A stretch of 64,000 bases of DNA from Candidatus Levyibacteriota bacterium (GCA_963790825.1 CAWBPM010000004.1:158987-222986), one strand, 5' to 3'. Shown: positions 868-40,093, counted from the first letter of the stretch. The notes: a model not told the origin generated them from the letters alone. Numbers and translations: made by a program.

Positions 868-1140
868 TCCGCGATAGCTCAACGGTAGAGCAGGAAACTG
901 TGTTAGCAGCTCTCAATAGAAATATTGAGATGATAAGTGGGTGAATTCAGGGAACGTCTTGAGAGGAATCGAAGGATAACCCTGAGCCAAGTCCCGCTTA
1001 GCGGGAAAGGTGCAGAGACTAGGTGATTACACCATTTAGCGCCCACCACCTAAATACTAAGCATTGGCGAAGTATAAGGTGATGAGATAGTCCAAAAAGT
1101 AATTTCAAGGTTCTAGGTTCGAATCCTAGTCGCGGAGCCA
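868..1140 (+). tRNA. tRNA-Asn(GUU) gene interrupted by a group I intron in the anticodon loop (exons 868-901 and 1100-1140)
   Basis: Acceptor stem TCCGCGA/TCGCGGA, D-arm GCTC-AACGGTA-GAGC, T-arm CTAGG-TTCGAAT-CCTAG, discriminator G and encoded CCA. Joined exons give anticodon loop CUGUUAA, identical to the canonical tRNA-Asn loop. Confidence 0.7.
902..1099 (+). ncRNA. group I self-splicing intron (small IC3-like, Azoarcus-tRNA-Ile-intron-like)
   Basis: P1 formed by exon CUGU with internal guide GCAG (U.G at splice site). Conserved core elements GCGGGAAA (P), GUGCAGAGACUAG (R/P7 5'), CACCCACCUAAA and GAGAUAGUCC (S/P7 3'). Terminal G at 1099. GAGCCAAG motif as in the Azoarcus intron. Confidence 0.65.
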
Positions 1141-2586: not shown

Positions 2587-2587
2587 A

Positions 2588-3028
2588 TTATTGACATTGC
2601 ATAAATTCATTTCGTGTTCCTTGGTTATAGGTAAAACAAGTGGTAGGTTTCGAAGGCTGAGTAATGTATTTTATTACTGGCGTTGGGGTAGGTTGTGGAT
2701 TATCAATTTCATATTGTTGATAAGCTTCAAATGCGTTTGAACATTTATCTACTGCATTCCAGCTCATTGAAGAAAAGTCAATTATTTTAGATTTACCTTC
2801 TTTATATGCTTCAGCTGAGGCTATAGATTTAAGGTAATCTTTAACATCGTTTCCTGTGCATTTATAATTTTCTAAAGTATTATATTTTGAAAGCCATTCT
2901 TGAGTAGTTTTTCCTTGATATGTAAGTTTCGGCTGAAGGTATAGATACATAACTACTAAGCCAACAGCAAAACCTATTGCCAATGACCCAAAAAGACTAT
3001 GTTTTATATTTTTTAACTTAATTTTCAT
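2588..3028 (-). CDS. membrane-anchored hypothetical protein (paralogue of the next gene)
   Basis: N-terminal TM helix, then a YQGKTTQEWLSKYN domain also present in the 3025-3387 ORF. Confidence 0.45.
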   Translation of the reverse strand: MKIKLKNIKHSLFGSLAIGFAVGLVVMYLYLQPKLTYQGKTTQEWLSKYNTLENYKCTGNDVKDYLKSIASAEAYKEGKSKIIDFSSMSWNAVDKCSNAFEAYQQYEIDNPQPTPTPVIKYITQPSKPTTCFTYNQGTRNEFMQCQ

Positions 3029-18746: not shown

Positions 18747-18870
18747 AGGCTGCGTATAGAAAGTGCGCCACGGGTGGCGAGTTTTATTGCTTAAATCCTT
18801 CAAAGCGGCATAGATTTTTGAACACCTATATGCTGACCTGGGTATTCAGAGAGAACGAATGTTTCTGTAG

Positions 18871-18983
18871 TTTCTTAATTTCCATCCATCTTTGTCTTAG
18901 CTCTCCTATATACCTTAGATCCTGAAAAGACTGGATAATTGAAGTGAAATCCAAGGGTATAATAAGACGAGGCTCGGGGAGCT
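18871..18983 (+). repeat. ~115-nt intergenic repeat family, copy A
   Basis: Shares ...ctttgtcttagct..cctatata.cttag.tcctgaaaaga...tataataa.a.gaggctcggggagct with copies at 21166, 23164 and 31905. Confidence 0.5.
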
Positions 18984-19109
18984 TTTTAAGTCGAGTTACG
19001 ACCACGATTTAGGTTGATAAGATAGTATAATTTACAATGTTTCTGGGGATGGTTTTCTGAAAGTCATGCCAAGTGTACGATGTAGGGAACTAACTTCCCA
19101 AGACATACA

Positions 19110-19451
19110 TTATAAAGGTTTAGATAAAAAGGCGAATACGAATAATATAGACAGGAGGATTATTAGTACAAAAATTCCCACAACTATTGCTCGATTGTTA
19201 TGGTGGTCTCCGTTCTTAGTTTGAACAATAAGCTTAGTAAATGTATGGTTCCAAAATAAATTTAGTGGGTAGGCTATGACAAAAATCGAAAAGGACAGCA
19301 TTAATAAGGAGGCAATTATAAAACCAATAATAGATGAAGCAAAATTTGAGAAAAGAGTTGACCAGAAATATGGAAAAATAACGAAAAAACCAATATAGAG
19401 TGATAATGCTAAAATAACTAGATTGCCTGCCCAATAGATAATCTTTTTCAT
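19110..19451 (-). CDS. small integral membrane protein, hypothetical
   Basis: Highly hydrophobic 113-aa ORF. Confidence 0.35.
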   Translation of the reverse strand: MKKIIYWAGNLVILALSLYIGFFVIFPYFWSTLFSNFASSIIGFIIASLLMLSFSIFVIAYPLNLFWNHTFTKLIVQTKNGDHHNNRAIVVGIFVLIILLSILFVFAFLSKPL

Positions 19452-19522
19452 ACTAGATAACTAATATAAGCATACTGGAAATATTATTAACGGACAAGTA
19501 TCACTAGAGTCTAATACCTCTC

Positions 19523-19558
19523 ATACCAGTTCCCCACATATTCAACCAGAGGGAGCAA
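19523..19558 (+). repeat. 36-bp perfect direct repeat, copy 1 (ataccagttccccacatattcaaccagagggagcaa)
   Basis: Identical 36-mer recurs at 23746-23781 in the same orientation. Confidence 0.7.
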
Positions 19559-19628
19559 TTGGCCCTTAATATAATATTCTGAATAAGTCGCGATACATTT
19601 CGGAACTTTGAATCTAATTTAAAGTTCT

Positions 19629-20657
19629 ATGGCAAGTGATTTTAAACGAGTCAGATACATACGACCAAAACTCTCCAAATTGAGCTATCATATCGAGATG
19701 AAGGCTCTTGAGGATGCAATGGCTTGTGAGTTATCAGATGTTGCTGCTTTTAGGATGCATGTGATCACCCATTACTACAAATATGGACTGCGTGCCACTC
19801 TTGATGCTTTTAATCTGAAACAAAGTACTTTCTATGACTGGAAGTGGGCATATGAGAGAAACAATCGGCGTGTCATTGCACTTGTTCCAAAATCAACACA
19901 ACCAAAAACAACAAGAGTAATGAAAACTGATCCACAGATAATTGAATTCATTAAGCAGATGCGAGTGGGACATGGGAACATAGGAAAAGAAATGATCAAA
20001 CCATTTGTGGATGCTTATTGCAAAAAACTTGGTATCAATACCATAGGACCAACTACTATTGGAAAGATCATCAAAAGGAAGAACTTTACCTTTGAGAAGA
20101 AGGTTTACCCACAAAAACAGCAAAACAGGTTCAAAAAGCTAAGAGTCAGAAAGTCTCCAAAGGTGACAAGTCCCGGATTTATCCAAATGGATTCCATAGT
20201 GGTATATATCAACTATGAGAAACATTTGTTTATGAGTGTGATTGATATTTTTACTAAATATGCACATGTCGTATATGTGGATACAATTTCTTCAGCAAAT
20301 GCAAAAAGAGTTTTCCAAGAGTTTATAGAGCTTAATCCGACATCCATTCATACAGTGCAAACAGACAATGGCTCTGAATTTCTCAAATCTTTCCATGCAT
20401 ATTTAGAAGAGCAACAGATTAAGCACCAATTCATTTATCCCAGAATGCCAAAGATCAATTCCTACATCGAGAGGTTTAACAGAACTATTCAAGAAGAGTT
20501 TATTCTCAGAAATGATGAGATTTATTACGATATTCCAGCTATGAACAGGAAACTCACCAAATATCTTTTCTGGTACAATTACCAAAGACCTCACAGGTCA
20601 CTTCATTACATGTCGCCTATGTCATTTATTGAAACCAATCTTCCGAAATGTGGGTGA
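19629..20657 (+). CDS. IS481-family-like DDE transposase (HTH + rve integrase core)
   Basis: Single 342-aa ORF with ...VQTDNGSEF...YNYQRPHRSL integrase-core motifs. Confidence 0.75.
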   Translation: MASDFKRVRYIRPKLSKLSYHIEMKALEDAMACELSDVAAFRMHVITHYYKYGLRATLDAFNLKQSTFYDWKWAYERNNRRVIALVPKSTQPKTTRVMKTDPQIIEFIKQMRVGHGNIGKEMIKPFVDAYCKKLGINTIGPTTIGKIIKRKNFTFEKKVYPQKQQNRFKKLRVRKSPKVTSPGFIQMDSIVVYINYEKHLFMSVIDIFTKYAHVVYVDTISSANAKRVFQEFIELNPTSIHTVQTDNGSEFLKSFHAYLEEQQIKHQFIYPRMPKINSYIERFNRTIQEEFILRNDEIYYDIPAMNRKLTKYLFWYNYQRPHRSLHYMSPMSFIETNLPKCG

Positions 20658-20704
20658 CGCGTACATATTCTCAGCCCCAAAATCGTATCTGATATAATCT
20701 TTAC

Positions 20705-21115
20705 ATGGATCAAGTTATAAAAATTGGCTGTGAAATATTCGTTATCAAAGAAGGCAAACTCTTATTTGGTATAAGAAAAAATATTTATGGAGATGGTTCA
20801 TGGGGATTACCTGGCGGACATTTAGAGTATGGAGAAAAATTAGTTGATGCTGCAAAGAGAGAGTTGGAGGAAGAAACCGGGATTAAAAATGTAGACCTTA
20901 TATTAACCAATATTGTTGATGACCCACGAGAAGACCAGCATTATCTTCATGTTGCGTTTAAGTTAGATAACTATAAAGGGGATGTTGAACTAAAAGAGCC
21001 AGAAAAGTGTGAGGAATGGAAATTTTTTCCTCTTGATAGTTTGCCTGAAAACATTTTTATTGGGCACAGGAAAATTATAGGTACTTTTCTTAAAGATAAG
21101 CTTTATTTGTATTAA
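20705..21115 (+). CDS. NUDIX hydrolase
   Basis: Nudix box GGHLEYGEKLVDAAKRELEEETGI. Confidence 0.8.
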   Translation: MDQVIKIGCEIFVIKEGKLLFGIRKNIYGDGSWGLPGGHLEYGEKLVDAAKRELEEETGIKNVDLILTNIVDDPREDQHYLHVAFKLDNYKGDVELKEPEKCEEWKFFPLDSLPENIFIGHRKIIGTFLKDKLYLY

Positions 21116-21165
21116 TTAAGGGATTGACTTAACATCGTCTACTCTAAATTAAGTTGCAAGTGCAG

Positions 21166-21282
21166 AATTTAATTGTAATTTCTTTATTTCCTCCCACCTT
21201 TGCCTCAATTCCCCGATATGGCCTAGATTCTGGAAGGATTCTATTACTTTTGCAGTTATAATAATCTCAGGCTCGGGGAGCT
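21166..21282 (+). repeat. ~115-nt intergenic repeat family, copy B
   Basis: aatttaattgtaatttcttt...cctttgcctcaattcc...ttttgcagttataataatctcaggctcggggagct; closest to copy C. Confidence 0.55.
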
Positions 21283-21418
21283 CGATAGCCTCAACTCATG
21301 CCTAAAAAGTTCACGAAACTAGAACTTTTTTAGTTATTTTCTTCAAATAGGAATAATACTAAATATATCCTTTGCAGACGCTCTCGAATTCGATGGTAAC
21401 ACAACGGAATAAGAAGAT

Positions 21419-22237
21419 TTAATTCTTACTTCTATCTAATCTCCAAGTTGATGAGACAAATCTTGGAATCCCTAGAATTCCTCTCTTTTTATAGGTTAAC
21501 TCTCGGAAAGTATGCATATCTTCCATTCTAAAACTAAAAATAACCTCTCTGAAATTTCTTGATAATGCCAGTTCTAAAGCTAATGGAGCAGAGGAAATTC
21601 TATTGAAATTAACCCTCGGATCAGTAAGTATTTCCTCGTCCAAACAAGTGGGCGTTTCTGAGTAAATTCTATGCTTGCCTTTTCCCTCTGTTTCGGCTGT
21701 TTCGCCCGGCTTTACTTTTGACAGTAAATCTAACGCCATGTCTTTCCCAAATAATATTTGCTCCCCCTGCGATAGCGGTAGATCGCGCCCTGAACTGCCA
21801 GGACCCTGAGATAAGGCTGATAAAGTAATTTTACAGGGCTCTTCGGGGTCAGCCAAATTACCGAAATCCAGTAAAGGCGAAAAGGGTTCATTGATACGCA
21901 GAGAAATATTATTATGACGCATAAAATACAACTCACGTTCACCTACCGTAAGATGTGGATGAACAACATGCTCCATTCGTCTTTGTGCACTATAAATAAT
22001 TGAAAGTGCTCTCCACCCATATTTTGAAATTATTCTAATTGGTTCCTGCCTTAAGGCATTTTCTTCCGGGGTAGGTCTAAAGGGTCCATCTGTAGCCATA
22101 AATATACTCCTTTTTGGAACAGCAGCGGAATAATACTCTCTGGGAAACAAATTGTCAAATAGGTGTGGAACTGCAAGACATGGGTTACGCTCAGATTTTA
22201 GCTTTTTCTCTAAATCTTTCATACGGTGTTTGTCCAT
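21419..22237 (-). CDS. hypothetical protein, GC-richer than surroundings, overlapping transposase 3' end
   Basis: 272-aa ORF at roughly 48% GC in a ~35% GC context; no recognised motif. Confidence 0.35.
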   Translation of the reverse strand: MDKHRMKDLEKKLKSERNPCLAVPHLFDNLFPREYYSAAVPKRSIFMATDGPFRPTPEENALRQEPIRIISKYGWRALSIIYSAQRRMEHVVHPHLTVGERELYFMRHNNISLRINEPFSPLLDFGNLADPEEPCKITLSALSQGPGSSGRDLPLSQGEQILFGKDMALDLLSKVKPGETAETEGKGKHRIYSETPTCLDEEILTDPRVNFNRISSAPLALELALSRNFREVIFSFRMEDMHTFRELTYKKRGILGIPRFVSSTWRLDRSKN

Positions 22238-23108
22238 TTAATGCCGAATGTGGTCTTTCAAAGTTGTAGAAGTTTTCCCACTCCTGCAGTTTTTCATTAA
22301 ATAGCTTGGTATCATCAATAACTACTCCTTCTAACATACGATAGAACTCCTCTTCGTCAATTCTGTGAGATCGTTCAACTTTTCCATTAAGCCTTGGTGT
22401 TCTTGGTCTAATATACACATGATTAATTCCTTTATCAAGGATGTGCCAATGGAATTGGCCTTGAAACTCTGATCCGTTATCTGTCTGAATTACTTCGGTA
22501 TGAAACGGTAGTCGAGAAAGAACATAATCAACAAACTGTATTGCAGTTAACTGGTTGTTTCTCTCATATATTTTTAACACCCTGAGTCTTGTACAATCAT
22601 CAATTGCAGTGAATTGATAATATCTTTGCCTTGTATCTTTTATTCGCTCAAGAAACTTTACATCCACTTGTATGCTGTGGCCCGGTTGAGGCTTTTCATA
22701 CCGTTTCCACCGCTCTGTGTGCTTTTTGTATCGTTGATTTGCTGGGAGTAAATTCATATTTAATCTTTTAAGCATTTTCCAAATACTTGATCTGTTAATG
22801 ACAATTCCATGATATCGTTCTAAGTACATCTTTATGCGTAGTGGACCAAAATGATAGGTTTGTCTTAAGTACACAACTTTAGCAACAATTTCAACTGGCG
22901 TTGCCATAGGGCTATTGTGTGGGCGTCTTGATTTATCTCGTAATCCTTCTTCACCCTCTTCTTGGTAACGTTTAAGCCACTCATAATACGCTGTCCTACC
23001 GATTCCGTAATACCTACAGGTTTTTGCTACATTGTGTGTAACTTCTTCCATGTGTCGTAGAACTCCCAGTCGCCATTTTTGCAATCGTTTTATTTCTTGT
23101 TCAGACAT
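22191..23108 (-). CDS. IS481-family DDE transposase
   Basis: N-terminal HTH (TCRYYGIGRTAYYEWLKRY), rve core ...IQTDNGSEFQGQ...YNFERPHSAL. Confidence 0.8.
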   Translation of the reverse strand: MSEQEIKRLQKWRLGVLRHMEEVTHNVAKTCRYYGIGRTAYYEWLKRYQEEGEEGLRDKSRRPHNSPMATPVEIVAKVVYLRQTYHFGPLRIKMYLERYHGIVINRSSIWKMLKRLNMNLLPANQRYKKHTERWKRYEKPQPGHSIQVDVKFLERIKDTRQRYYQFTAIDDCTRLRVLKIYERNNQLTAIQFVDYVLSRLPFHTEVIQTDNGSEFQGQFHWHILDKGINHVYIRPRTPRLNGKVERSHRIDEEEFYRMLEGVVIDDTKLFNEKLQEWENFYNFERPHSALNGQTPYERFREKAKI

Positions 23109-23163
23109 AGTCGATATTTTAACACTAAAAAGTGTTCGCTATGTCCTGCAGTTTTATAATAGG

Positions 23164-23279
23164 ATTTAATTGTAATTTCTTAATCTCTCCCCACCTTTGC
23201 CTCAGTTCTCCAATGTAGCTCAAGTTTTGAAAAGAATCTATTATTTTTGCCGTTATAATAATTCTAAGCTCGAGGAGCT
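23164..23279 (+). repeat. ~115-nt intergenic repeat family, copy C
   Basis: gatttaattgtaatttcttaatctctccccacctttgcctcagttctcc...ttttgccgttataataattctaagctcgaggagct. Confidence 0.55.
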
Positions 23280-23328
23280 TTGAATTTAGAGTCTGACAAA
23301 TCCCATTTTTTATGATAGAATCTCCACG

Positions 23329-23703
23329 ATGAAAACAGAGGTTCCGTACTTCATCCGAATGAGGGGTTGTATTAATTGCCAAGCCTCCAAGGATTTGAAA
23401 GCAAAGACTGGCCATGATTATGGCTTTGATCATGAAATTATTGTAAGATGTGTCTTGATGGGCTGCAAATTCTATGGTCAGGATCTGATGAATCCATACT
23501 ATGATCCTGCAGAGATAGTGCGGTTAGCAAACAAGGCGGGAACTCTCCAAGTACAAAGTGGAACGAGAAAACTTCTGCAAAACTTGCAGACACAATATGA
23601 GAAGTTCTACCAGAGAGAAAATATCTCTATAGAAGATGTATCAAAGGGACTTGGAACTTCGCTAATGCCAGACACAGCAAATCCTAGAAATCGCCCAATG
23701 TAA
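23329..23703 (+). CDS. hypothetical protein (124 aa, Cys-containing)
   Basis: ORF between repeat copy C and the second 36-bp repeat. Confidence 0.3.
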   Translation: MKTEVPYFIRMRGCINCQASKDLKAKTGHDYGFDHEIIVRCVLMGCKFYGQDLMNPYYDPAEIVRLANKAGTLQVQSGTRKLLQNLQTQYEKFYQRENISIEDVSKGLGTSLMPDTANPRNRPM

Positions 23704-23745
23704 CAAGCAAAAAATATAAAGAGAAGTTATTTAAGGGTAATTCAA

Positions 23746-23781
23746 ATACCAGTTCCCCACATATTCAACCAGAGGGAGCAA
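23746..23781 (+). repeat. 36-bp perfect direct repeat, copy 2
   Basis: Identical to 19523-19558. Confidence 0.7.
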
Positions 23782-23815
23782 GCTCATCCCCGAAAGCCTC
23801 TTATAATGACCCAGT

Positions 23816-24430
23816 TCACAGGGTATTTTTATTTAAATCGCCTGTAAGATATCTTTGTAGCGTTGGCGCAAGGTATTCTATTAATTTATCCGGTGGCAGC
23901 GAGGCCAACGGCTGAATTTTTAGAATGTAGCGCACAATAACTACCCCGAGTAATTGTGATTGAATAAGAGTCACCCGAAGCTCAGCGTTGTCCAGTTCCT
24001 TATAATTCTTAAAAACGTTCAGTATAGGGCGTATAAGTACTTCTTTTAAGAGTGATGCTGCTCCGGGTACCTGGACTACGGCGCGCATTGCACTGACTAT
24101 CAGATGATTTGTTGCCTTAGATTCAAGTATACCGACAAAGAGCGTTGCTAGTCTCAAACCGAGTGTTTCTGTATTTCCTGTAAGTTCTCTTGTTATTTTT
24201 TCCGGTATGTGCTGCGCCGGTGCCATGACTGCTACAAAAAGTTCCTGCTTTGTTCCAAAGTAATGCATAACCAGTGCAGGGTCCACCTCCGCCAATCTTG
24301 CAATTCCCCTAATCGTTGTCTGGTCATAGCTTGTATTGGCAAATAATGACTGCGCAACGACAATTATCTTTGTCTTCGTCTCATTTTGTCCAGGACGTCT
24401 ACCCATCTTTTTACTTAATTCACCCATCAT
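23816..24430 (-). CDS. TetR-family transcriptional regulator
   Basis: N-terminal TetR HTH KTKIIVVAQSLFANTSYDQTTIRGIARLAEVDPALVMHYF. Confidence 0.7.
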   Translation of the reverse strand: MMGELSKKMGRRPGQNETKTKIIVVAQSLFANTSYDQTTIRGIARLAEVDPALVMHYFGTKQELFVAVMAPAQHIPEKITRELTGNTETLGLRLATLFVGILESKATNHLIVSAMRAVVQVPGAASLLKEVLIRPILNVFKNYKELDNAELRVTLIQSQLLGVVIVRYILKIQPLASLPPDKLIEYLAPTLQRYLTGDLNKNTL

Positions 24431-24496
24431 CTACATATTATACTACATGTAAAATATAATTCAACATTGTTGACATATTCATAATAACTGCTTATA

Positions 24497-25792
24497 ATGC
24501 AACTATCGCATGTTGGTTGGTTTAGAGAACACAACAGACATGGTTATAAAACATACTATGCGTATATGAATAAAGGCTTATCGCAACTTAAAGCTAAAAA
24601 AATTATCATTATCCCTATCGTTATTGTAATTGTTTTTTTTACTATCCAGACAATTCTCCTGTATCAGCCAAGTACGGAGATTGACTACACTGTCAAACAC
24701 GAAAACCTCGTGGATACTATTCTGGTTAGCGGGACATACATGACTGCTTCCCAGGTACCCGTCAATTCTCCAGCCTCCGGTACTATAATCAGTCTTTATG
24801 TGGAAAATGGAGATAGGGTGAAAAAAGGAGATCCACTTTTTTATGTTGAAAGCACTGCGACAACCGATGAGCAAGACGCGGCATATTCGAATTATGAAAG
24901 CGCTCTTAGTGGATTACAAACCGCACAAAACACCATACAAAGTCTTGATGCGGCAATGTGGACTAAACAGCAGGCATATATCTATGCCCAAAATACACAA
25001 AACTACATGAACAATAATACAACAAATCCCGTAACAAAAAATGCCTACACGGATCTTGAAAAATTTGCAATCAATAGCTCGGTTACCCAGGCCCAAAAAG
25101 ATTTCCAAGCCGCAGAGCAGGCATATAAAACCGCCGGAGCCGCAGTAAATGCAGGGCAGGCAGAAGTAGCGCAGACCAAACATCTGTACGAGGAGACACA
25201 AAGCACAACTGTTACCGCACCGGGGGCAGGAATAATTGTAAATTTTAACACTAAGGTGGGCGATTCGGTTTCCGAAGGGAATGCAGGGATGGTGACTGCT
25301 GGATCTTCAGCAGGACAGACATCTATTTCATCATCAGCTCCACAACCCATCCTTGTCATTGCAAATCTTTCAGATCCCCACCTAACAGCTGCGGTTAGTG
25401 AAGATTATGCTGCATGGATAATGGCCGGACAAAAGGTGTCAATCGTCTTTGATTCGCTAAAAAGTAAAACATTTAGCGGTATGGTGCAAAATATCGATAC
25501 AGTTGGAACGGATACAGACGGTGTTATTACTTATAACGCGCGAATTACAGCCGATAATATCACCTCGAACATCAAGCCTGACATGACGGCACTTATCACC
25601 ATTGAAACGCTTCGAAAAAACAATGTGATTGATGTTCCCAATAGCGCAATTATTACAACAAACGGCAGAAGCTTGGTTGAGGATGCAAAAACACGAAGAC
25701 AAATACCCGTTACGCTGGGAGTAAACGGCATGGCAAAGACAGAAGTAACCGGTGGATTAAGAGACGGGGTAATAATAGTTGCCAACCCTTAA
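24497..25792 (+). CDS. efflux periplasmic adaptor (HlyD/MacA-like membrane-fusion protein)
   Basis: N-terminal TM anchor, biotinyl-like PASGTIISLYVENGDRVKKGDPLFYVES, coiled-coil Q/A-rich middle, beta-barrel C-terminus; start may be the internal MNKGL (24566). Confidence 0.65.
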   Translation: MQLSHVGWFREHNRHGYKTYYAYMNKGLSQLKAKKIIIIPIVIVIVFFTIQTILLYQPSTEIDYTVKHENLVDTILVSGTYMTASQVPVNSPASGTIISLYVENGDRVKKGDPLFYVESTATTDEQDAAYSNYESALSGLQTAQNTIQSLDAAMWTKQQAYIYAQNTQNYMNNNTTNPVTKNAYTDLEKFAINSSVTQAQKDFQAAEQAYKTAGAAVNAGQAEVAQTKHLYEETQSTTVTAPGAGIIVNFNTKVGDSVSEGNAGMVTAGSSAGQTSISSSAPQPILVIANLSDPHLTAAVSEDYAAWIMAGQKVSIVFDSLKSKTFSGMVQNIDTVGTDTDGVITYNARITADNITSNIKPDMTALITIETLRKNNVIDVPNSAIITTNGRSLVEDAKTRRQIPVTLGVNGMAKTEVTGGLRDGVIIVANP

Positions 25793-25832
25793 AGAGGTAC
25801 AATTTTAATTTTACATTATATTTTTTATTATT

Positions 25833-27104
25833 ATGTTATGGAAGGATAAATCTTTATCTGTAGGTTTTTTTCTCGCATTTCGTGAGATCCGGCGCACCAA
25901 CCCCGCAACAACTCTCCTTATTATCTTTGTAATGACGCTCACGTTTTTCAATATGAATCTAATTGGCGGCGTTTTAATCGGTATTGCACACGGGTTGGTT
26001 GGATCATATAAAGAATATTACTCAAGTGATATTCTCATTACTCCTGCAACCCAGAAAAACGACATAGAAGATACCGATACTGATATGGATGTTATACAGA
26101 ATCTTCCTACCTTTCAAGCTGCGACGATTCGTTATACTGCCCCGGCTCTTGTTGAATACGGCTATGAAAATAAATTACGATCATCCGATCTTGCCGAAAG
26201 TTCTGAAGGCGTACTGACCGGTATAGATCCGGTGCAGGAAGACAAAACGACTCACTTGTCGCATATTCTTGTTGCCGGTTCATATCTGAGCGAATCAGAT
26301 GTCAATGAAGTACTTATTGGCGCTAGCCTCACCAAAAAATATGCCTCCCTAAGAGGTTCTGTTCTCGGTCTCGGTACTAAGATTCTCAAAACGGCCGATG
26401 TGGGGTCAAAAGTCCGTATAACAGTTAACGGCATTCAAAAAGAAGTGTTTATCAAAGGGATTATCTCAACAGACGGAACCAATATTGATAACCGTATCAT
26501 GATGACTAGTACAACGGTGCGGGAATTACTGGGCAATACAAATATGAATGCAAGCGAAATAGCTGTTTTGCTCAAACCAAACTCATCCGAAGAAAATGCC
26601 AAAAAATATCTTATCAAAAATTTAGGAAACGATAATAATATACTGATCCAGACCGCCACTGATGCTCTCCCCGGTGGTGTCTCCGATGTTATAAAAACCT
26701 TTACTATTTTAGGCAATATCGTCGGCGGGATCGCACTTATTGTCGGTGCTATTACTATCTTTATTGTGATTTTTGTTAATGCCGTCACAAGAAGGAAATT
26801 TATAGGTATCTTAAAAGGCATTGGTATTTCTTCCCGCGCGATTGAAATTTCTTATGTTTTCCAGGCGCTATTTTATGCCGTTTCGGGAATCTTGATTGCC
26901 AGCGCATTGGCAAACTGGTTGCTGGTTCCGTATTTTCTCCTGCATCCGATCAATTACCCTATTGCAAAAGGATCACTGGCAATTACCACCTCTGATTTAA
27001 TTCTACGTGGAACGATACTGACCCTAACATCACTCATTTCGGGATATATTCCGGCCTGGCTGGTCACGAAGCAAAATACACTGGATGCTATTTTGGGACG
27101 GTAA
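25833..27104 (+). CDS. ABC transporter permease (FtsX/MacB-like)
   Basis: N-terminal TM, large periplasmic domain, then 3 C-terminal TM helices. Confidence 0.65.
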   Translation: MLWKDKSLSVGFFLAFREIRRTNPATTLLIIFVMTLTFFNMNLIGGVLIGIAHGLVGSYKEYYSSDILITPATQKNDIEDTDTDMDVIQNLPTFQAATIRYTAPALVEYGYENKLRSSDLAESSEGVLTGIDPVQEDKTTHLSHILVAGSYLSESDVNEVLIGASLTKKYASLRGSVLGLGTKILKTADVGSKVRITVNGIQKEVFIKGIISTDGTNIDNRIMMTSTTVRELLGNTNMNASEIAVLLKPNSSEENAKKYLIKNLGNDNNILIQTATDALPGGVSDVIKTFTILGNIVGGIALIVGAITIFIVIFVNAVTRRKFIGILKGIGISSRAIEISYVFQALFYAVSGILIASALANWLLVPYFLLHPINYPIAKGSLAITTSDLILRGTILTLTSLISGYIPAWLVTKQNTLDAILGR

Positions 27105-27109
27105 AATTT

Positions 27110-27799
27110 ATGATTAAAGTTAAAAACCTAGTTAAGAAGTTTCATATGGGGGATACAGAGCTTGTAGCGCTGAAAAATATAAGCTTTGATGTTCCCAGCA
27201 GACAATTTCTGGCAATAACGGGCAAGTCCGGAGCCGGCAAAAGTACCTTACTGTATAATATCAGCCTTTTGGATAAACCAAACGAAGGAGAAATTATTAT
27301 TGACGGTGATAATATTTCCGATCTTGATGACAAATTGAGAGTTGTTTATCGGCGGAATAATTTCGGATTTGTTTTTCAGGAATACGCGCTTCTTCCGATG
27401 CTTACTGCTGTTGAAAATGTTTCCTTATTGATGCTTATGCAGGGAGTAGACAAAAAAACTGCGACGCAAAGAGCCATGGATGCGCTCGCAAAAGCCGATT
27501 TACCGAATAAACCTCATAATTTACCCAGCCAGTTATCGGGTGGTGAACAGCAGCGGGTTGCAATTGCCCGCGCCATTGCTCACAATCCAAAGATACTCTT
27601 TGCGGATGAACCGACGGCCAATTTAGATACCGAATCCTCAAAACATGTACTTGATACATTTATAAAACTAAATAATACTGGATTAACAATTATTATGGTT
27701 ACTCATGAACTTGAATATGCAAGATTGGCAGACCGTAATATTGAACTAAGGGACGGTGCGATAATTAGAGATAAAATGCAGAAATATCGCGGAAAATAA
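27110..27799 (+). CDS. ABC transporter ATP-binding protein (MacB/LolD-type)
   Basis: Walker A GKSGAGKST, signature LSGGEQQRVAIARA, Walker B ILFADEPT. Confidence 0.85.
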   Translation: MIKVKNLVKKFHMGDTELVALKNISFDVPSRQFLAITGKSGAGKSTLLYNISLLDKPNEGEIIIDGDNISDLDDKLRVVYRRNNFGFVFQEYALLPMLTAVENVSLLMLMQGVDKKTATQRAMDALAKADLPNKPHNLPSQLSGGEQQRVAIARAIAHNPKILFADEPTANLDTESSKHVLDTFIKLNNTGLTIIMVTHELEYARLADRNIELRDGAIIRDKMQKYRGK

Positions 27800-27806
27800 A
27801 AAATGG

Positions 27807-28868
27807 CTACTTAAGATACTTATGTAAAAAGGATAATGCTTGAACTATGGCCTCGGAAGTATCAGGCGATAGGTTATGATCAGCTTCTAAGTATTCGTGA
27901 AAATCTACTGTTTTTCCAGCACTTTGTAGTTCGTCTCTCAGGGAGGTTGAAAAACTTGGGGGAACATCTTCGTCTTCAGTTCCAACTTGGATTTGTACAG
28001 GAGCAGTAATGTCAGAAATATAAGTAGTTGGGTCAATTGTCTGCCAAAATGTAGGATTGGTTTGTGGTGTCCCGTGCAACTCAGTAAACTGTTTTACCAA
28101 CAGTGCTGTTTCCTGATCGTTTTGTGTCGTTAAAACTCCTGTCGCAACACGTGTATTCCACCACTTAAGAATGTCTGTGTAGCTGCCAACTACTCCCGAT
28201 AAGATAACAGCTGCTTTTATATCTTTTGAAATAACGAGTTCATGGATGGTTATATTTCCTCCCATGGAATGTCCTAACACCCCAATTTTATTCGGATCTG
28301 CATCCTTATATTTTTTTACTGATGCAAGAGCATTCAAGCTATCTGTCACATAATCTGGAGAAACATAGATTTGCGATGCTTTACCTTGTGAATTTCCATT
28401 TCCACGGTAATCTGGTTTAAATACAATATATCCGGCAGAAGCTATGGGATTAGCTAAAACGTCGTAGCTGCTTTCAGTAGAGTACTGACTTGGAGGTATA
28501 TACCCATGATTAAAAAGAATGATTGGCCACCCGCCAAATGGTTTTTGACCTATGGGTACAGTTAGCAAACCATATATTTTTAATCCATCTGATAGATATG
28601 AAACAAGAAAACGATTGTAATTTACACCAGAAGTTAATGTTTGTTCGATTATTATATCGCTTCCTGGGTATGATTTTTGTCTCATTGCAGCAATTGCAAG
28701 CGGGAAATTATTATTATTTTGTATTGATTGAGAAGGCATAGCTGTTGCTTGGATTGCCATAGTTTCTGTTATAGTTGCAACCTTCCGATTTTGTGAATGT
28801 ATAAAAAATAGAATCCCAGCTGTTAGCATACTGACAAAAATAATAAGAAATATAAAAACCTTTTTCAT
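27807..28868 (-). CDS. secreted alpha/beta hydrolase (S9 peptidase/esterase-like)
   Basis: Signal peptide, GHSMGG nucleophile elbow. Confidence 0.6.
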   Translation of the reverse strand: MKKVFIFLIIFVSMLTAGILFFIHSQNRKVATITETMAIQATAMPSQSIQNNNNFPLAIAAMRQKSYPGSDIIIEQTLTSGVNYNRFLVSYLSDGLKIYGLLTVPIGQKPFGGWPIILFNHGYIPPSQYSTESSYDVLANPIASAGYIVFKPDYRGNGNSQGKASQIYVSPDYVTDSLNALASVKKYKDADPNKIGVLGHSMGGNITIHELVISKDIKAAVILSGVVGSYTDILKWWNTRVATGVLTTQNDQETALLVKQFTELHGTPQTNPTFWQTIDPTTYISDITAPVQIQVGTEDEDVPPSFSTSLRDELQSAGKTVDFHEYLEADHNLSPDTSEAIVQALSFLHKYLK

Positions 28869-29135
28869 ACGATGTATTCTACAATACCAATAATAAAAGA
28901 CGGTAAGAGAAGTAAGTATTCTCTAAAAACAGAAAAACTAAATTTCTTCTGCCTTGAGCAGGATGATATCGAATAACGTACAGCCTTCGGAAAACAGTAG
29001 TGAATTGTGGGGTAAATCAATAAACTAAATCTGAAACTCTGGAGATATGTCTGGGATATAGAAATACTCATCTTGTCGTTGAAATAATGGCTTAAAGTTA
29101 TTCGCGATGCGAAGCCGTATATTTTAGTCTCAAAA

Positions 29136-29450
29136 TTGTCCTCAAATGATATAATAGTTCTGATGAAAGTTTTAAAGAATAAGATAGTTTTGCTGACCAT
29201 ATTTTTAATAGGTTTATTGCTTTTTGTTTTTGCAATAAATCAATTTTTTCTTTTAAGAAAAGCGCATAGCACATTCGAAAACTATTACACTTTTAGAGGA
29301 TGCACACAAATACTTAAAAGAACACAGGATTATGGAATTTGTAAAATAAATACTGGCCAAACTATTAAAATTGTAAAATTTCAAGGCAAGTGGTATCTGG
29401 ATGGAGATTTGCCATGGGCATGTTTAGGCAGAATTTGCTTTGGCATATAA
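29136..29450 (+). CDS. small membrane protein, hypothetical
   Basis: One TM helix and a Cys-containing C-terminus. Confidence 0.3.
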   Translation: MSSNDIIVLMKVLKNKIVLLTIFLIGLLLFVFAINQFFLLRKAHSTFENYYTFRGCTQILKRTQDYGICKINTGQTIKIVKFQGKWYLDGDLPWACLGRICFGI

Positions 29451-29567
29451 ATTAATTATATAAGATTAATTTATATAGATTATTTCGTTATCTTGATCTC
29501 TTTGGTAACATAATTTTTATTCTTTGGGTTACCTAACTGCTTTATCTCAATAAATAGGCTCTAACAT

Positions 29568-30323
29568 CTATGGATATTTAATATCTTTGTGGGTGATTGT
29601 TAGGTAAACAACAAAGATGATTATCAAAATTGTTAAGACCAGACTTACCGTTGTATCTCCTAGGCCAAGACCACCCAGAATTGGTTTTCCAAAATAATCT
29701 GCAAAGGACGCGCCGAAAGGACGTGTTATAACATATGCAAACCAGAATGAAAAAATCTCTTTCCAACCCAATTTCCAGTAAGCAAAACCTGGTATTAAAA
29801 ATAACACCGCAAACAATATTCCGGAAAGTAAATACCCCAACCCGAGGGTTGCCGCTGTCATGTCACCTGCAGCTGTTCCAAGAGCAAAAGTAATCATAAC
29901 TGTTGCCCAGTAAAATAGTTCACGACGCGTTGTGTTAATACTGTGAATAGAAAGAGTTTTCTCAAATCTGTACCAGGTAATAAATATAACTGCAAGGAAT
30001 ATGGAAAAGAATGCTGTTGATACAATATACGGAATGCCTAGCGCTACATGCAAAACGTCTGCGGCCATTGTTCCAAAGATTGCTACCATTACAACAGTCA
30101 GCCAATAAACCCAAGCAATATATTTTTTTACCCAAAACTGAAGCATTAAAGAAATTGCTAAACCAATTCCTCCAAGGGTAACAGCGACATATGGATTAAT
30201 GTGAAATACAAGGTAGTCCGAGGTTGATTCGCCCATTGCGGTAGTCAGCAGTTTGATAATCCAGAAGTATACGGTGATTTCGGGAACCTTTCTGGCTATA
30301 TATTTAGCATTAATTTTTAACAT
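29568..30323 (-). CDS. integral membrane protein, hypothetical (6-7 TM)
   Basis: Repeated hydrophobic segments throughout. Confidence 0.45.
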   Translation of the reverse strand: MLKINAKYIARKVPEITVYFWIIKLLTTAMGESTSDYLVFHINPYVAVTLGGIGLAISLMLQFWVKKYIAWVYWLTVVMVAIFGTMAADVLHVALGIPYIVSTAFFSIFLAVIFITWYRFEKTLSIHSINTTRRELFYWATVMITFALGTAAGDMTAATLGLGYLLSGILFAVLFLIPGFAYWKLGWKEIFSFWFAYVITRPFGASFADYFGKPILGGLGLGDTTVSLVLTILIIIFVVYLTITHKDIKYP

Positions 30324-30636
30324 AATTACTAGTTTAAGAGATTAGGGTTAAAAATCCAATAGGTTCAGTTCTGACATTGTTCATTCCACGGAGCCCATGT
30401 CAGTCAATAGGAGAATTCTAAGAATATCGGTTCATATGTGTCTTCCGTCTTCAGAAAATGCGTTCGAAGTGAGTAAACGTTGAGAAAGTTTAATGCCTTA
30501 AATAATAGTTCCGCACATATCTAACCCGATTTGATCAGAGTCAACCAGAGGAACTTTATTTTTTAGCCTCAGATAACTACATCAAACTACCTAATCCGGA
30601 ATAGGATTCGGACCTGGTATAATATAAATAAAGGAG

Positions 30637-30921
30637 GTGAATAATATAGACACAACACAACCACAAGGACCATTTTGTCAAAGCTGTGGTATGCCGATGA
30701 TGAAACCGGAAGATTTTGCTACAAATGCGGATGGCAGTAAAAATGAAGAGTATTGCAATTATTGTTTCCAAAAGGGTAATTTTACCTGGCCGAATGCAAC
30801 TCTTAATCAAATGATTGAAAAAATAGTTTCAATGCATGGCCAGATGGGGACGACCGAAGAAGAGGCAAGAAAAATGGCAAATGAAAATTTGCCGAAGCTC
30901 AAAAGATGGAAAGCCCAGTAA
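30637..30921 (+). CDS. putative zinc-ribbon-domain protein
   Basis: CQSCGMPM...CNYCF Cys pairs at the N-terminus; strong GGAGGTG RBS. Confidence 0.5.
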   Translation: MNNIDTTQPQGPFCQSCGMPMMKPEDFATNADGSKNEEYCNYCFQKGNFTWPNATLNQMIEKIVSMHGQMGTTEEEARKMANENLPKLKRWKAQ

Positions 30922-30947
30922 ATGTTTGATATTATTACAGTAATTGA

Positions 30948-31361
30948 TTGGAGGTGATAAAAATGAAAGGATTTACATCCGATATTGAAACAGCTACAAG
31001 AGCAAATGCTAATTTCCGTAAAGTACTTTATACCGCGAAGCACAGTCAACTGGTGCTAATGAGTCTTTTGCCAAATGAAGAAATTGGAATGGAGGTGCAT
31101 CCGGATAATGACCAGTTTTTCCGCTTTGAGGAGGGATCGGGCAAATGTATCATCGACGGAAACGAATATGCGGTTAAGGACGGAGATGTTGTCATTGTAC
31201 CGGCTGGAGCTAATCATAATGTTATTAATGTGTCCAACACTGAAGATTTGAAGCTTTATACAATTTACAGTCCGGCACATCATAAGGACGGTATTGTTCG
31301 AGCTAGCAAAACTGAAGCCGTACAAAATGAAGCCGAGTTTGACGGGGTGACGACAGAATAA
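30948..31361 (+). CDS. cupin-domain protein
   Basis: G(x)5HxH-like MEVHPDNDQFFRFEEGSG...VVIVPAGANHNVIN cupin motifs. Confidence 0.6.
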   Translation: MEVIKMKGFTSDIETATRANANFRKVLYTAKHSQLVLMSLLPNEEIGMEVHPDNDQFFRFEEGSGKCIIDGNEYAVKDGDVVIVPAGANHNVINVSNTEDLKLYTIYSPAHHKDGIVRASKTEAVQNEAEFDGVTTE

Positions 31362-31452
31362 ATTTTGATTAGACTTAGATTTATAAATTAAAGCCGACAA
31401 AATAGGTTCAAACTTCCTCTGTCACTCGAAGTTCATTTACTTCTTTATTTTT

Positions 31453-31881
31453 TTGCTATATAATATTTTAGTGCTTAAAGGATTTAAACAATTTATATTG
31501 AAGGGTAATGTAGTCGATTTGGCGGTTGGCGTTGTTATTGGAGTAGCGTTTGGCTCAATCGTTACCGCGCTTGTAAAAGATATTATCACACCAATAATTG
31601 GCGCTATTGGAGGAAAACCTGATTTTTCAGCAATTAGCTTCACAATCAACAACAGTAAATTTTTAGTTGGTGATTTTCTTAATGCAGTTATTTCCTTTCT
31701 CATCATTGCGGTAGTTGTCTACTTTTTTGTTGTAATCCCGATGAATAAATTAATAGCGGTAACCAGAAAAGAAAAACCCATAGACCCAACGACTAAAAAA
31801 TGCCCTGAATGCTTGAGTGTTATTCCGCTTGAAGCAAAACGCTGTGCGTTTTGCACGGCAGTCCTCAGTTCTAAAAAATAA
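31453..31881 (+). CDS. mscL: large-conductance mechanosensitive channel MscL with C-terminal CxxC...CxxC zinc-ribbon tail
   Basis: LKGNVVDLAVGVVIGVAFGSIVTALVKDIITPIIG TM1 signature; C-terminal CPECLS...CAFC. Confidence 0.7.
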   Translation: MLYNILVLKGFKQFILKGNVVDLAVGVVIGVAFGSIVTALVKDIITPIIGAIGGKPDFSAISFTINNSKFLVGDFLNAVISFLIIAVVVYFFVVIPMNKLIAVTRKEKPIDPTTKKCPECLSVIPLEAKRCAFCTAVLSSKK

Positions 31882-31904
31882 GATTCATTTAAAAAGATTA
31901 CCTA

Positions 31905-32020
31905 ATTTCTTTTTGTCACCTTTTAATCTCATTACACTTTGTCTTAGTTTCCCTATATAACTTAAGCTTCTGAAGGATTATATTACTTTTGCAGCTACAA
32001 TAATCTCAGGACTGTGGGAC
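31905..32020 (+). repeat. ~115-nt intergenic repeat family, copy D
   Basis: atttctttttgtcacc...ctttgtcttagtttccctatataacttaagcttctgaaggatt.tattacttttgcagctacaataatctcagg. Confidence 0.5.
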
Positions 32021-32139
32021 TAAATAGTATAGCAATAGTTCGAAGATCGACCTGTAGGCGAATAGCTCCCCCGCGCGGGACAGGCAGAATCAATCTTTTA
32101 CTTGACGTTTTTCAGATTTCAGATTATATATGATTTAGT

Positions 32140-40091: not shown

Positions 40092-40093
40092 TA

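What the first reader, a model, noticed from the sequence alone, without database searches (positions are those of the whole stretch)
18871..32020. Four-member ~115-nt intergenic repeat family in direct orientation (18871, 21166, 23164, 31905)
The copies share blocks atttctt / ctttgYctYaR / ccWataWRSctYaRRtYctgRaaRgaYt / tatWaYttttgcMgYtataataatctcagg / ctcgRggagct. Copies B and C are the most similar (including an extra aatttaattgtaattt 5' block) and bracket the 1.9-kb segment carrying the GC-rich ORF and an IS481 transposase. Copy D lies in core-like DNA between mscL and a secreted Cys-rich gene. All are intergenic and on the same strand. Candidates are a promoter/UP-type module (it contains tTGcag...TATAAT-like hexamers), a MITE-like or integron attC-like recombination site, or a small RNA family.
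Basis: seen in the sequence. Interest (0 to 1): 0.55.

Follow-up and report, generated by a model that had tools for sequence, protein, structure and literature searches.

The report
Split-off serine recombinase gene tails
The four "intergenic repeats" are detached copies of the last ~45 codons of large serine recombinase genes, read on the opposite strand; they appear to be the scars of mobile elements that inserted one after another next to a tRNA-Asn gene in a Patescibacteria (CPR) genome.

Summary
There are four ~115-nt copies on the + strand and no others in the window. The family occurs across Microgenomates/Patescibacteria: 186 hits in about 1 Mb of fetched loci, and none in viral contigs.

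The copies are not a structured RNA, a MITE or a full sigma-70 promoter. Substitutions are three-periodic on the minus strand (pN/pS 0.16). The encoded peptide, LPEPRINITLDFSSIIQAFQDLRYIGELRQRWEEIKKLQ, is the C-terminal tail of full-length large serine recombinases (LSRs), for example a 614-aa gene in L044.

The window has two LSR genes on the peptide strand. LSR#1 lacks the tail and instead runs into the 3' end of a tRNA-Asn(GTT) gene. Three other loci show the same junction. All junctions share the core G-CTCC.

In every multi-copy locus the copies point the same way. Where a tRNA-Asn is in the locus it lies downstream on the opposite strand (25 of 27 pairs). Decayed LSR fragments lie among the copies.

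Best explanation: attP lies inside the LSR reading frame, so integration at tRNA-Asn splits off the tail, and serial integration leaves an array of tails. This is a new variant of the known tandem-island accretion at tRNA and tmRNA genes. Recombination itself is inferred, not shown.

The parts
18826..18983 (-). Copy A: detached LSR tail. The core G is at 18982 and the tail codons run 18981 to 18826 (LPEPRLIIPLDFTSIIQSFQDLRYIGELRQRWMEIKKLQKHSFSLNTQVSI*). This is the long subtype. It has an in-frame GTG seven codons upstream.
21149..21282 (-). Copy B: detached LSR tail, short subtype (LPEPEIIITAKVIESFQNLGHIGELRQRWEEIKKLQLNSALAT*). It has no canonical start codon; GAG precedes CTC.
23125..23279 (-). 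Copy C: detached LSR tail, short subtype (LLELRIIITAKIIDSFQNLSYIGELRQRWGEIKKLQLNPIIKLQDIANTF*). AAG precedes CTC.
31905..32021 (-). Copy D: decayed tail with an in-frame stop and single-base deletions. It has the lowest profile score (56 bits) and lies furthest from the tRNA.
868..1140 (+). tRNA-Asn(GTT) gene interrupted by a group I intron (Rfam hit 895-1109). This is the proposed attB. Its last 15 nt overlap the end of LSR#1 on the other strand.
1126..2610 (-). LSR#1, 494 aa (Resolvase + Recombinase + Zn_ribbon_recom). It ends ...NDNQLWLRD* = CAA CTT TGG CTC CGC GAC TAG inside the tRNA-Asn 3' end. This is the tail-less form, an attL-type junction.
7153..8760 (-). LSR#2, 535 aa, same domains. 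It still carries a tail of a second family (core CAG CTC CCC at about 7258, then LPLVDIFKNRQIEFGFSLQNIKTVFETFQIQPAYA*).
19523..19558 (-). 36-nt scar, identical to 23746-23781. The minus strand reads TTG CTC CCT CTG GTT GAA TAT (LLPLVEY): the core plus the first codons of a family-2-like tail only.
23746..23781 (-). Second copy of the 36-nt scar.

Best explanation
Each repeat is a copy of the 3'-terminal ~45 codons (the 'tail') of a large serine recombinase gene, separated from the body of that gene by the recombinase's own integration reaction.

Proposed mechanism:
- In the free element, attP lies inside the recombinase reading frame. Its core is about G-CTCC, the codons for (W/M/L)-L-P.
- The first ~30 nt of the tail resemble the 3' end of tRNA-Asn.
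- The target, attB, is the extreme 3' end of the chromosomal tRNA-Asn(GTT) gene.
- Integration joins the recombinase body to the tRNA end. This gives a truncated recombinase, as seen for LSR#1 at 1126-2610.
- The tail, followed by the element's cargo, is left at the far border of the insert.
- Each new integration at the same tRNA pushes older inserts outward. The result is a one-directional array of tails separated by cargo and decaying recombinase genes.

In the window, the roughly 31 kb from the tRNA (1140) to copy D (32021) would be such an array, with D the oldest scar.

Shown: the coding signature, the tail on intact recombinases, the recombinase-tRNA junctions, the shared core, and the orientation and tRNA-Asn association.

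Inferred: that recombination happens this way, where exactly the crossover lies, and the order of ages.
For: 1. Coding on the minus strand.
- Entropy by codon position is 0.59/0.20/1.20.
- pN/pS is 0.16 in that frame against 0.95-3.5 in four of the other five frames and 0.30 in the antisense frame whose third positions coincide.

2. The peptide belongs to recombinases.
- L044 8300-10144 is a 614-aa Resolvase+Recombinase+Zn_ribbon protein that ends in the peptide.
- Nine further predicted proteins have a recombinase-like C-terminal region running in frame into the peptide; Pfam confirmed a recombinase domain in one of them, P0148.
- An exhaustive search of 1.84 billion representatives finds only 211 proteins. 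Whenever the protein is long, the peptide is at its C-terminus.

3. Recombinase ORFs end inside the tRNA-Asn 3' end in the window, L073, L075 and L092. These involve two recombinase subfamilies.

4. Related recombinase bodies continue either into tRNA (L073 ...VTQ|LRD*) or into a tail (window LSR#2 ...QPQ|LPLVD...). All junctions share G-CTCC.

5. tRNA-Asn(GTT) accounts for 15 of 36 tRNAs in about 1 Mb of loci. The predicted geometry holds for 25 of 27 element-tRNA pairs, plus 4 of 4 in the window.

6. All copies in every multi-copy locus share one orientation, with up to 7 per 20 kb.

7. Recombinase genes and short recombinase relics in the arrays lie almost always on the peptide strand.

8. 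A second tail family, from the LSR#2 type, also occurs as detached copies on the same strand in the same arrays.

9. About 18% of non-redundant full-length copies carry stops or frameshifts, and many copies are partial.

10. Window scores fall with distance from the tRNA: 106, 96, 88, 56 bits.

11. The same cargo genes recur in different arrays, with homology ending at or inside the elements.
Against: - No excised circle, empty site or experiment was available, so recombination is inferred from junction anatomy only.
- More than 90% of copies are detached, and many array units are single genes of 0.4-2 kb without any recombinase. This needs either heavy decay or mobilisation in trans.
- 57% of detached copies have ATG, GTG or TTG exactly at the boundary, and gene callers predict them as 45-60-aa proteins. 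An independent small gene is therefore not excluded.
- In pairs that share cargo, identity rises gradually across the element. Partial copies break near profile position 45-55. In some pairs the break is at the stop end. The real crossover could therefore lie inside the element, or homologous recombination between tails may blur the picture.
- The resemblance of the element to tRNA-Asn is modest (z 0.3-6.2), and Rfam's tRNA model does not match.
- Many metagenome loci are duplicates of the same populations, so the counts are not independent.
Confidence: 0.72

Rival explanations
1. The repeat is an independent small gene of about 48 aa, for example a regulator or a recombination directionality factor, present in many paralogous copies. 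Recombinase-bearing elements merely insert at its 5' end, which now and then creates fusions.
For: - A canonical start codon sits at the boundary in 65 of 114 copies.
- 291 proteins were found, and those listed are almost all 40-60 aa.
- Purifying selection is strong, also between window copies (pS about 1, pN 0.09-0.2) and between copies next to the same cargo (pN/pS 0.18).
- The AlphaFold model is confident: pLDDT 80, an extended N-terminus followed by two helices.
Against: - An intact 614-aa recombinase carries the peptide as its natural end.
- A second, unrelated tail family behaves the same way.
- Window copies B and C lack a canonical start at the boundary (B has none upstream of the peptide) and D is broken.
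- The base before CTC is always G. TGG (23 copies) and TAG (5 copies) also occur there, which fits a DNA core rather than a start codon.
- The first ~10 codons show no three-periodicity, and the Leu/Pro codons appear fixed as CTC CCC in the alignment.
- There is no conserved upstream signal.
- There is no Pfam, NCBIfam, PDB or Foldseek match.
Confidence: 0.12
2. The elements are the working recombination sites of an integron-like cassette platform. A serine recombinase acting in trans captures and shuffles small circular cassettes (cargo plus one element) at the tRNA-Asn locus, rather than whole recombinase-bearing elements inserting serially.
For: - Units are often single genes.
- The cargo repertoire is cassette-like: NUDIX, GNAT, OsmC, DinB_2, AHSA1, RibD_C, L-PSP, toxin-antitoxin genes.
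- Orientation is uniform regardless of gene orientation.
- The same cargo appears in different arrays with different neighbours.
Against: - No circular cassette has been seen.
- Recombinase relics inside the arrays argue that at least some units once carried their own enzyme.
- The sites lack attC-type hairpin symmetry.
- This is an extension of the main model, not an alternative to the identity of the repeat.
Confidence: 0.1
3. The repeat is a + strand promoter module driving the downstream gene.
For: - TATAnT is conserved about 19 nt before the + strand end of the element, with the Ile codon fixed as ATA.
- The neighbour on that side is co-oriented in 24 of 34 cases.
Against: - None of the four copies is reported as a + strand -35/-10 pair with 16-18 nt spacing.
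- 10 of 34 downstream genes are convergent.
- About 100 nt of conservation upstream of the box is explained by coding on the other strand.
Confidence: 0.04
4. The repeat is a structured small RNA or cis-regulatory RNA family.
For: Intergenic position and conserved length.
Against: - The consensus structure has 0 pairs on the + strand and 4 pairs on the - strand, with negligible covariation.
- There is no Rfam match at gathering or E <= 10 thresholds.
- The substitution pattern is codon-like.
Confidence: 0.02

Closest known systems
Dehalococcoides ssrA genomic islands (serine recombinase DsiB, a CcrB homologue); McMurdie et al. 2011, PMC3146451 (read)
   Same: Islands lie in tandem downstream of a single tRNA-like gene. 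The large serine recombinase gene sits on the reverse strand next to the target gene. Island borders are marked by same-direction repeats, and many islands lack an integration module.
   Different: There the repeat is a 20-bp copy of the ssrA 3' end. Here it is about 115-120 nt, is coding, and forms the recombinase's own C-terminus. The target is tRNA-Asn and the host is a CPR bacterium.
SSV-type ('suicidal') tyrosine integrases of archaea; Badel et al. 2020, PMC7253208 (abstract seen)
   Same: The recombination site lies inside the integrase reading frame, so integration splits the integrase gene into two parts at the borders of the insert. The targets are tRNA genes (the tRNA target is from my own knowledge, not the abstract).
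   Different: Those are tyrosine recombinases and the split inactivates the gene. Here the enzyme is a serine recombinase, and only the last ~45 codons are removed or swapped.
SCCmec / CcrAB composite islands at rlmH (own knowledge; also mentioned in PMC3146451)
   Same: A serine recombinase integrates at the 3' end of one conserved gene, and tandem accretion produces arrays bounded by direct repeats.
   Different: The repeats are short and non-coding, and the recombinase gene is not interrupted.
Integration-dependent immunity of mycobacteriophages (attP inside the repressor gene; own knowledge, Broussard et al. 2013, not read here)
   Same: An attP inside the 3' part of a gene makes the integrated and free forms encode products with different C-termini.
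   Different: The gene concerned is a repressor, and the integrase is a tyrosine recombinase.
Integron attC arrays
   Same: Co-oriented ~60-140-nt sites lie between small accessory genes, and the gene repertoire is similar.
   Different: There is no R''/L''-L'/R' hairpin symmetry, no IntI was seen, and the sites are codon-constrained.

Membership tests
Large serine recombinase integrative element at a tRNA gene | Recombinase with Resolvase catalytic domain, Recombinase domain and zinc-ribbon domain | tested here: met
   Window 1126-2610 and 7153-8760, and L044 8300-10144, all hit PF00239, PF07508 and PF13408.
Large serine recombinase integrative element at a tRNA gene | Recombinase gene abuts a specific chromosomal target | tested here: met
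   ORFs end inside the tRNA-Asn(GTT) 3' end in the window, L073, L075 and L092. tRNA-Asn is 15 of 36 tRNAs in the loci.
Large serine recombinase integrative element at a tRNA gene | Same-direction border repeats that share a core with the target | tested here: met
   The core G-CTCC is common to the tRNA junctions, the recombinase-tail junctions and the detached copies. All copies in a locus share one orientation.
Large serine recombinase integrative element at a tRNA gene | Excision or integration demonstrated (circular junction, empty site) | not testable with these tools
Integron attC site | Imperfect palindrome (R''-L''...L'-R') that folds as a hairpin | tested here: not met
   No inverted-repeat arms within copies. 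No consensus fold on either strand.
Integron attC site | Adjacent IntI tyrosine recombinase | not tested
   None appeared among about 80 neighbour proteins scanned, but array ends were not searched systematically.
MITE | Terminal inverted repeats and target-site duplication | tested here: not met
   No terminal inverted repeats. Flanks of the copies were read and aligned, but target-site duplications were not specifically searched.
Structured non-coding RNA | Conserved secondary structure with covariation, or an Rfam match | tested here: not met
Sigma-70 promoter | -35 and -10 hexamers 16-18 nt apart | tested here: not met
   None of the four copies is reported on the + strand. Only the TATAnT box is present.
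Integrase gene partitioned by its own attP (SSV-type principle) | Recombination site inside the integrase ORF; gene parts at both borders of the insert | tested here: inconclusive
   The anatomy fits. It has not been shown that a given body and a given tail belonged to one gene. The enzyme class differs (serine, not tyrosine).
Independent small-protein gene | Own start codon, ribosome-binding site and promoter; intact in most copies | tested here: inconclusive
   A start codon is at the boundary in 57% of copies and about 80% are intact. There is no conserved upstream signal, and window copies B-D lack starts or are broken.

The most novel reading that the evidence does not exclude
A family of CPR serine recombinases has its attP inside its own reading frame, so that integration at tRNA-Asn removes or swaps a 45-residue C-terminal tail. 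The tail would act as a built-in switch of recombination direction or activity: the full-length enzyme exists only in the excised circle or after a further insertion. The detached tails would stay usable as sites, making the tRNA-Asn locus a serine-recombinase counterpart of an integron that collects single-gene cassettes.
Probability: 0.25. Interest if true: 0.8.

Novelty: new variant of a known kind. Interest (0 to 1): 0.6.

Why it matters
- It turns an unexplained repeat into a map of mobile-element borders. About 31 kb of the window (1140-32021) reads as serially acquired DNA, which matters for annotating accessory versus core genes in CPR genomes.
- It gives candidate attP/attB pairs for an untested recombinase family: a core G-CTCC inside the gene, and the tRNA-Asn 3' end as target. 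Serine recombinases are sought as genome-engineering tools.
- A serine recombinase whose C-terminus is exchanged by its own reaction would be a new way to couple enzyme form to integration state. I found no report of this for serine recombinases in four literature searches. The principle is known for archaeal tyrosine integrases.
- Several hundred predicted 'hypothetical small proteins' in public databases (291, 211 representatives) would be re-read as recombinase gene fragments.

Tried and rejected
- Rfam at gathering and permissive thresholds: nothing at the copies.
- RNAalifold on both strands: no structure.
- An IS481-end hypothesis for copy C, which lies upstream of a transposase: no matching inverted repeat at the other end.
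- Pfam, NCBIfam, PDB sequence search and Foldseek with the peptide: no match. My guess of a ribbon-helix-helix fold, based on the extended-helix-helix model, found no support.
- Exact-protein look-ups of window proteins: not on record.
- Viral contigs: no relatives.
- Reading the whole 3' 75 nt of the element as a pseudo-tRNA-Asn: only modest alignment scores (z 0.3-6.2), so kept as a suggestion only.
- Fixing the crossover from mosaic breakpoints: breaks fall at the core end, inside the element and at the stop end in different pairs, so the position stays open.
Full report
**1.

A profile built from them finds these four in the window at E 3e-29 to 3e-36, and nothing else below E 0.2. A broader profile of 35 copies (31 of them from other genomes) again finds only these four. 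They score 106 (A), 96 (B), 88 (C) and 56 (D) bits. B and C are 79% identical. A carries a 9-nt insertion, and D has single-base deletions.

**2. The family is widespread in one lineage**

- One scan of 185,579 species genomes with a 23-nt degenerate block returned 30 loci. Most are from Microgenomates: Levy-, Gottesman-, Ames-, Roizman- and Woesebacteria.
- Those loci hold about 35 full-length copies, often several per 8 kb.
- A peptide-based scan of metagenome contigs found 328 further places. A scan of viral contigs found none.
- In about 1 Mb of fetched DNA there are 186 hits.
- The window itself has 38% G+C; its proteins and related loci point to Patescibacteria.

**3. It is not an RNA, a MITE or a full promoter**

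- Rfam has no match at the copies, even at E <= 10.
- RNAalifold on 35 copies gives no pairs on the + strand and four weak pairs on the - strand.
- There are no terminal inverted repeats.
- None of the four copies is reported as a + strand -35/-10 pair by the consensus scan. That scan's total count is at the shuffle expectation, 51 against 44.7 +/- 6.2.

**4. It is coding on the minus strand**

- In the alignment, changes are synonymous swaps: TTG/CTA/TTA, AGG/AGA, GGG/GGA, ATC/ATT/ATA.
- Over the 23 best-aligned codons, entropy by codon position is 0.59/0.20/1.20.
- pN/pS is 0.16 in this frame. In four of the other five frames it is 0.95-3.5. It is 0.30 in the antisense frame whose third positions coincide.
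- Length differences between subtypes are mostly whole codons; the commonest is 9 nt.
- The consensus peptide is (L)LPEPRINITLDFSSIIQAFQDLRYIGELRQRWEEIKKLQ, followed by 5-10 variable residues and a stop.
- The first ten codons behave differently. They show no periodicity (0.79/0.92/0.81), and Leu-Pro appears fixed as CTC CCC and one Ile as ATA in the alignment. That points to a constraint on the DNA itself at that end.

**5. What the peptide belongs to**

- A profile search of 5.8 billion proteins returns 291 hits. Those listed are almost all unnamed 40-60-aa predictions.
- An exhaustive profile search of 1.84 billion representatives returns only 211 proteins.
- There is no match in Pfam, NCBIfam, PDB sequences or Foldseek.
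- The few long hits are decisive. P0148 carries a recombinase zinc-ribbon domain, and the peptide sits at its C-terminus. P0160, P0217, P0200, P0121, P0158, P0171, P0113 and P0046 have recombinase-like C-terminal regions that run in frame into the peptide.
- In L044 a complete 614-aa ORF has Resolvase, Recombinase and Zn_ribbon_recom domains. It ends ...NPSLLPEPRINITIDFSSIINAFQDLRYIGELRQRWNEIKKLQMNTPLAFA*.
- The peptide is therefore the C-terminal tail of a family of large serine recombinases (LSRs).

**6. The window holds the other half of the story**

Two LSR genes lie on the minus strand, the strand of the peptides: 1126-2610 (494 aa) and 7153-8760 (535 aa).

- LSR#1 has no tail. It ends ...NDNQLWLRD*, encoded by CAA CTT TGG CTC CGC GAC TAG. 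Those last 15 nt are the reverse complement of the 3' end of a + strand tRNA gene...GGTTCGAATCCTAGTCGCGGAGCCA.
- That gene is tRNA-Asn(GTT), 868-1140, interrupted by the group I intron that Rfam reports at 895-1109.
- LSR#2 keeps a tail of a different sequence family. After the core CAG CTC CCC it reads LPLVDIFKNRQIEFGFSLQNIKTVFETFQIQPAYA*.

**7. The same junctions recur elsewhere**

- LSR ORFs run into the tRNA-Asn 3' end in L073 (...RVTQLRD*), L075 (...KSGLPRVDSNRQPCP*) and L092 (...PFWLRG*).
- The L073 enzyme is of the LSR#2 type and stops at exactly the residue after which LSR#2 continues into its tail.
- When tRNA junctions, LSR-tail junctions and detached copies are aligned on the peptide strand, they all share G-CTCC, with unrelated sequence to its left.
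- The codon before CTC always ends in G: TTG 43, TGG 23, ATG 13, GTG 9, CAG 7, TAG 5 and others.
- TGG CTC C is the reverse complement of a tRNA ...GGAGCCA end.
- The first ~30 nt of the tail (+ strand ...ATTAATCCTAGGCTCGGGGAGCAA) resemble the T-arm and acceptor end of tRNA-Asn. The short subtype can be aligned over the whole tRNA. The statistics are modest, however (z 0.3-6.2 against shuffles).

**8. Arrays and their anchor**

- In every multi-copy locus all copies point the same way. Examples are L061 with 7 copies in 20 kb, L062 with 6, and L038 with 5 in 8 kb. L061 and L083 together give at least 10 copies in 27 kb of one Gottesmanbacteria contig.
- tRNA-Asn(GTT) is 15 of the 36 tRNAs detected in the loci. 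It lies downstream of the peptide, on the opposite strand, for 25 of 27 element-tRNA pairs. In the window this holds for 4 of 4.
- LSR genes and short LSR C-terminal relics inside the arrays are almost always on the peptide strand.
- Detached copies of the second tail family occur on the same strand in the same arrays: L086 has 3, L035 has 2, and L013, L080, L076, L040 and L062 also carry them.
- About 18% of non-redundant full-length copies have stops or frameshifts. Some twenty hits are partial.

**9. Neighbours**

- The gene on the stop side of the peptide is convergent in 35 of 42 cases and usually within tens of nt. The gene on the start side is divergent in 28 of 39 cases.
- The neighbours are very diverse accessory genes: NUDIX, GNAT, OsmC, DinB_2, AHSA1, RibD_C, L-PSP, arginase, MscL and toxin-antitoxin genes.
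- The same genes, at 80-95% identity, sit in different arrays with different neighbours. Homology ends at or within the elements.

**10. The model**

- attP lies inside the LSR reading frame at G-CTCC, and attB is the tRNA-Asn 3' end.
- Integration gives body-core-tRNA, a truncated enzyme such as LSR#1. It also gives flank-core-tail-cargo at the distal border.
- A later integration at the same tRNA gives the older body the newcomer's tail. This explains intact fusions inside chromosomes, such as L044, and adds one more detached tail.
- On the minus strand the window then reads in this order:
  - D and its cargo (32021 to 23280);
  - C with the IS481-type transposase and a 272-aa ORF (23279 to 21283);
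  - B with NUDIX and an rve transposase (21282 to 18984);
  - A with cargo and LSR#2 (18983 to about 7259);
  - the family-2 tail, cargo and LSR#1 (about 7258 to 1141);
  - tRNA-Asn.
- Joining LSR#1 at TGG to copy A at CTC keeps the reading frame.
- The strong purifying selection seen between detached copies can have accumulated while the tails were parts of working genes, so it does not by itself show that detached copies function.

**11. What remains open**

- No circle or empty site was seen.
- The exact crossover is not fixed. In pairs that share cargo, identity climbs from about 55% at the core end to about 95% at the stop end of the element. Partial copies break near the 5' end of the tRNA-like part. 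In some pairs the break is at the stop end. Homologous exchange between tails, or a crossover inside the element, could explain this.
- Most units have no recombinase. Mobilisation in trans, integron-like, is possible.
- A start codon at the boundary in 57% of copies keeps the 'independent small gene' reading alive at low probability.

**12. Comparison with known systems**

- The architecture matches the tandem ssrA islands of Dehalococcoides, which are driven by a CcrB-like serine recombinase (PMC3146451), and SCCmec composites.
- A recombination site inside the integrase ORF is the principle of archaeal SSV-type 'suicidal' tyrosine integrases (PMC7253208).
- Four literature searches found no report of a serine recombinase whose own C-terminus is split off by integration, nor of these elements in CPR bacteria.
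- I therefore rate this as a new variant of a known kind.

**Caveats**

- Neighbour genes were called with a simple longest-ORF rule.
- Loci were retrieved through conserved patterns, which favours well-preserved copies.
- Several metagenome loci are the same population sampled repeatedly.

Noticed in passing
window 868-1140 (+): A tRNA-Asn(GTT) gene interrupted in the anticodon loop by a group I intron (Rfam 895-1109, 85.5 bits). ARAGORN does not call it. The stop codon of the recombinase gene 1126-2610 lies inside its acceptor stem.
   Followed up: partly
window 19523-19558 and 23746-23781 (+); L031 9109-9144: A perfect 36-nt direct repeat in the same orientation as the four copies. Its minus strand reads TTG CTC CCT CTG GTT GAA TAT (LLPLVEY), that is, the core plus the first codons of a family-2-like tail only. 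The pair brackets 4.2 kb holding copies B and C and both DDE transposases. A 7-mismatch relative lies in the L031 array in the array orientation.
   Followed up: partly
L086 2245, 2966, 6267; L035 3370, 11708; L013; L080 939; L076 9549; L040 5579; L062 13288: A second family of detached recombinase tails (LPL[VI]DMFRN[RK].IE...L[QE]N[IV][QK]T...), from the LSR#2 type. It sits in the same arrays on the same strand, so gaps without a family-1 copy may hold other scars.
   Followed up: partly
L018, about 24 nt beyond the 3' end of tRNA-Asn (2845-2917, - strand): Directly after an intact tRNA-Asn lies a second tRNA-Asn 3' fragment (TCGAATCCTCGCGGGGGAGCAAA) of a different variant. It looks like a displaced target end.
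   Followed up: no
L062 9998 vs L080 1644; L009 1450 vs L030 403; partial copies in L023, L030, L062, L076: For copies next to the same cargo, identity rises gradually across the element. Long and short tail subtypes can sit next to the same cargo gene. Partial copies break near profile position 45-55. This suggests a second breakpoint inside the element.
   Followed up: partly
window 19629-20657 (+) and 22191-23108 (-): Two DDE (rve-type) transposase genes, one with IS481-type N-terminal domains, lie inside the array units between copies A-B and B-C. No terminal inverted repeats were found for the second.
   Followed up: partly
window 32065-32081 (+): GCTCCCCCGCGCGGGAC lies 45 nt beyond the core of copy D. 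It is a G+C-rich palindrome that also resembles an inverted tRNA-Asn 3' end. Its meaning is unknown.
   Followed up: no
window 38226-42040 (+), repeats at 39371-41581: Repeat families with a spacing of about 950-990 nt lie inside two long adjacent ORFs (621 and 681 aa). They are probably repeated protein domains or recently duplicated genes.
   Followed up: no
L009 about 2140-2165 and L030 about 1090-1110: Homology between two copies of a cargo gene starts only about 20 nt before the ATG and includes a TATAAT 7 nt upstream of it. This suggests a leaderless transcript for this cargo gene.
   Followed up: no
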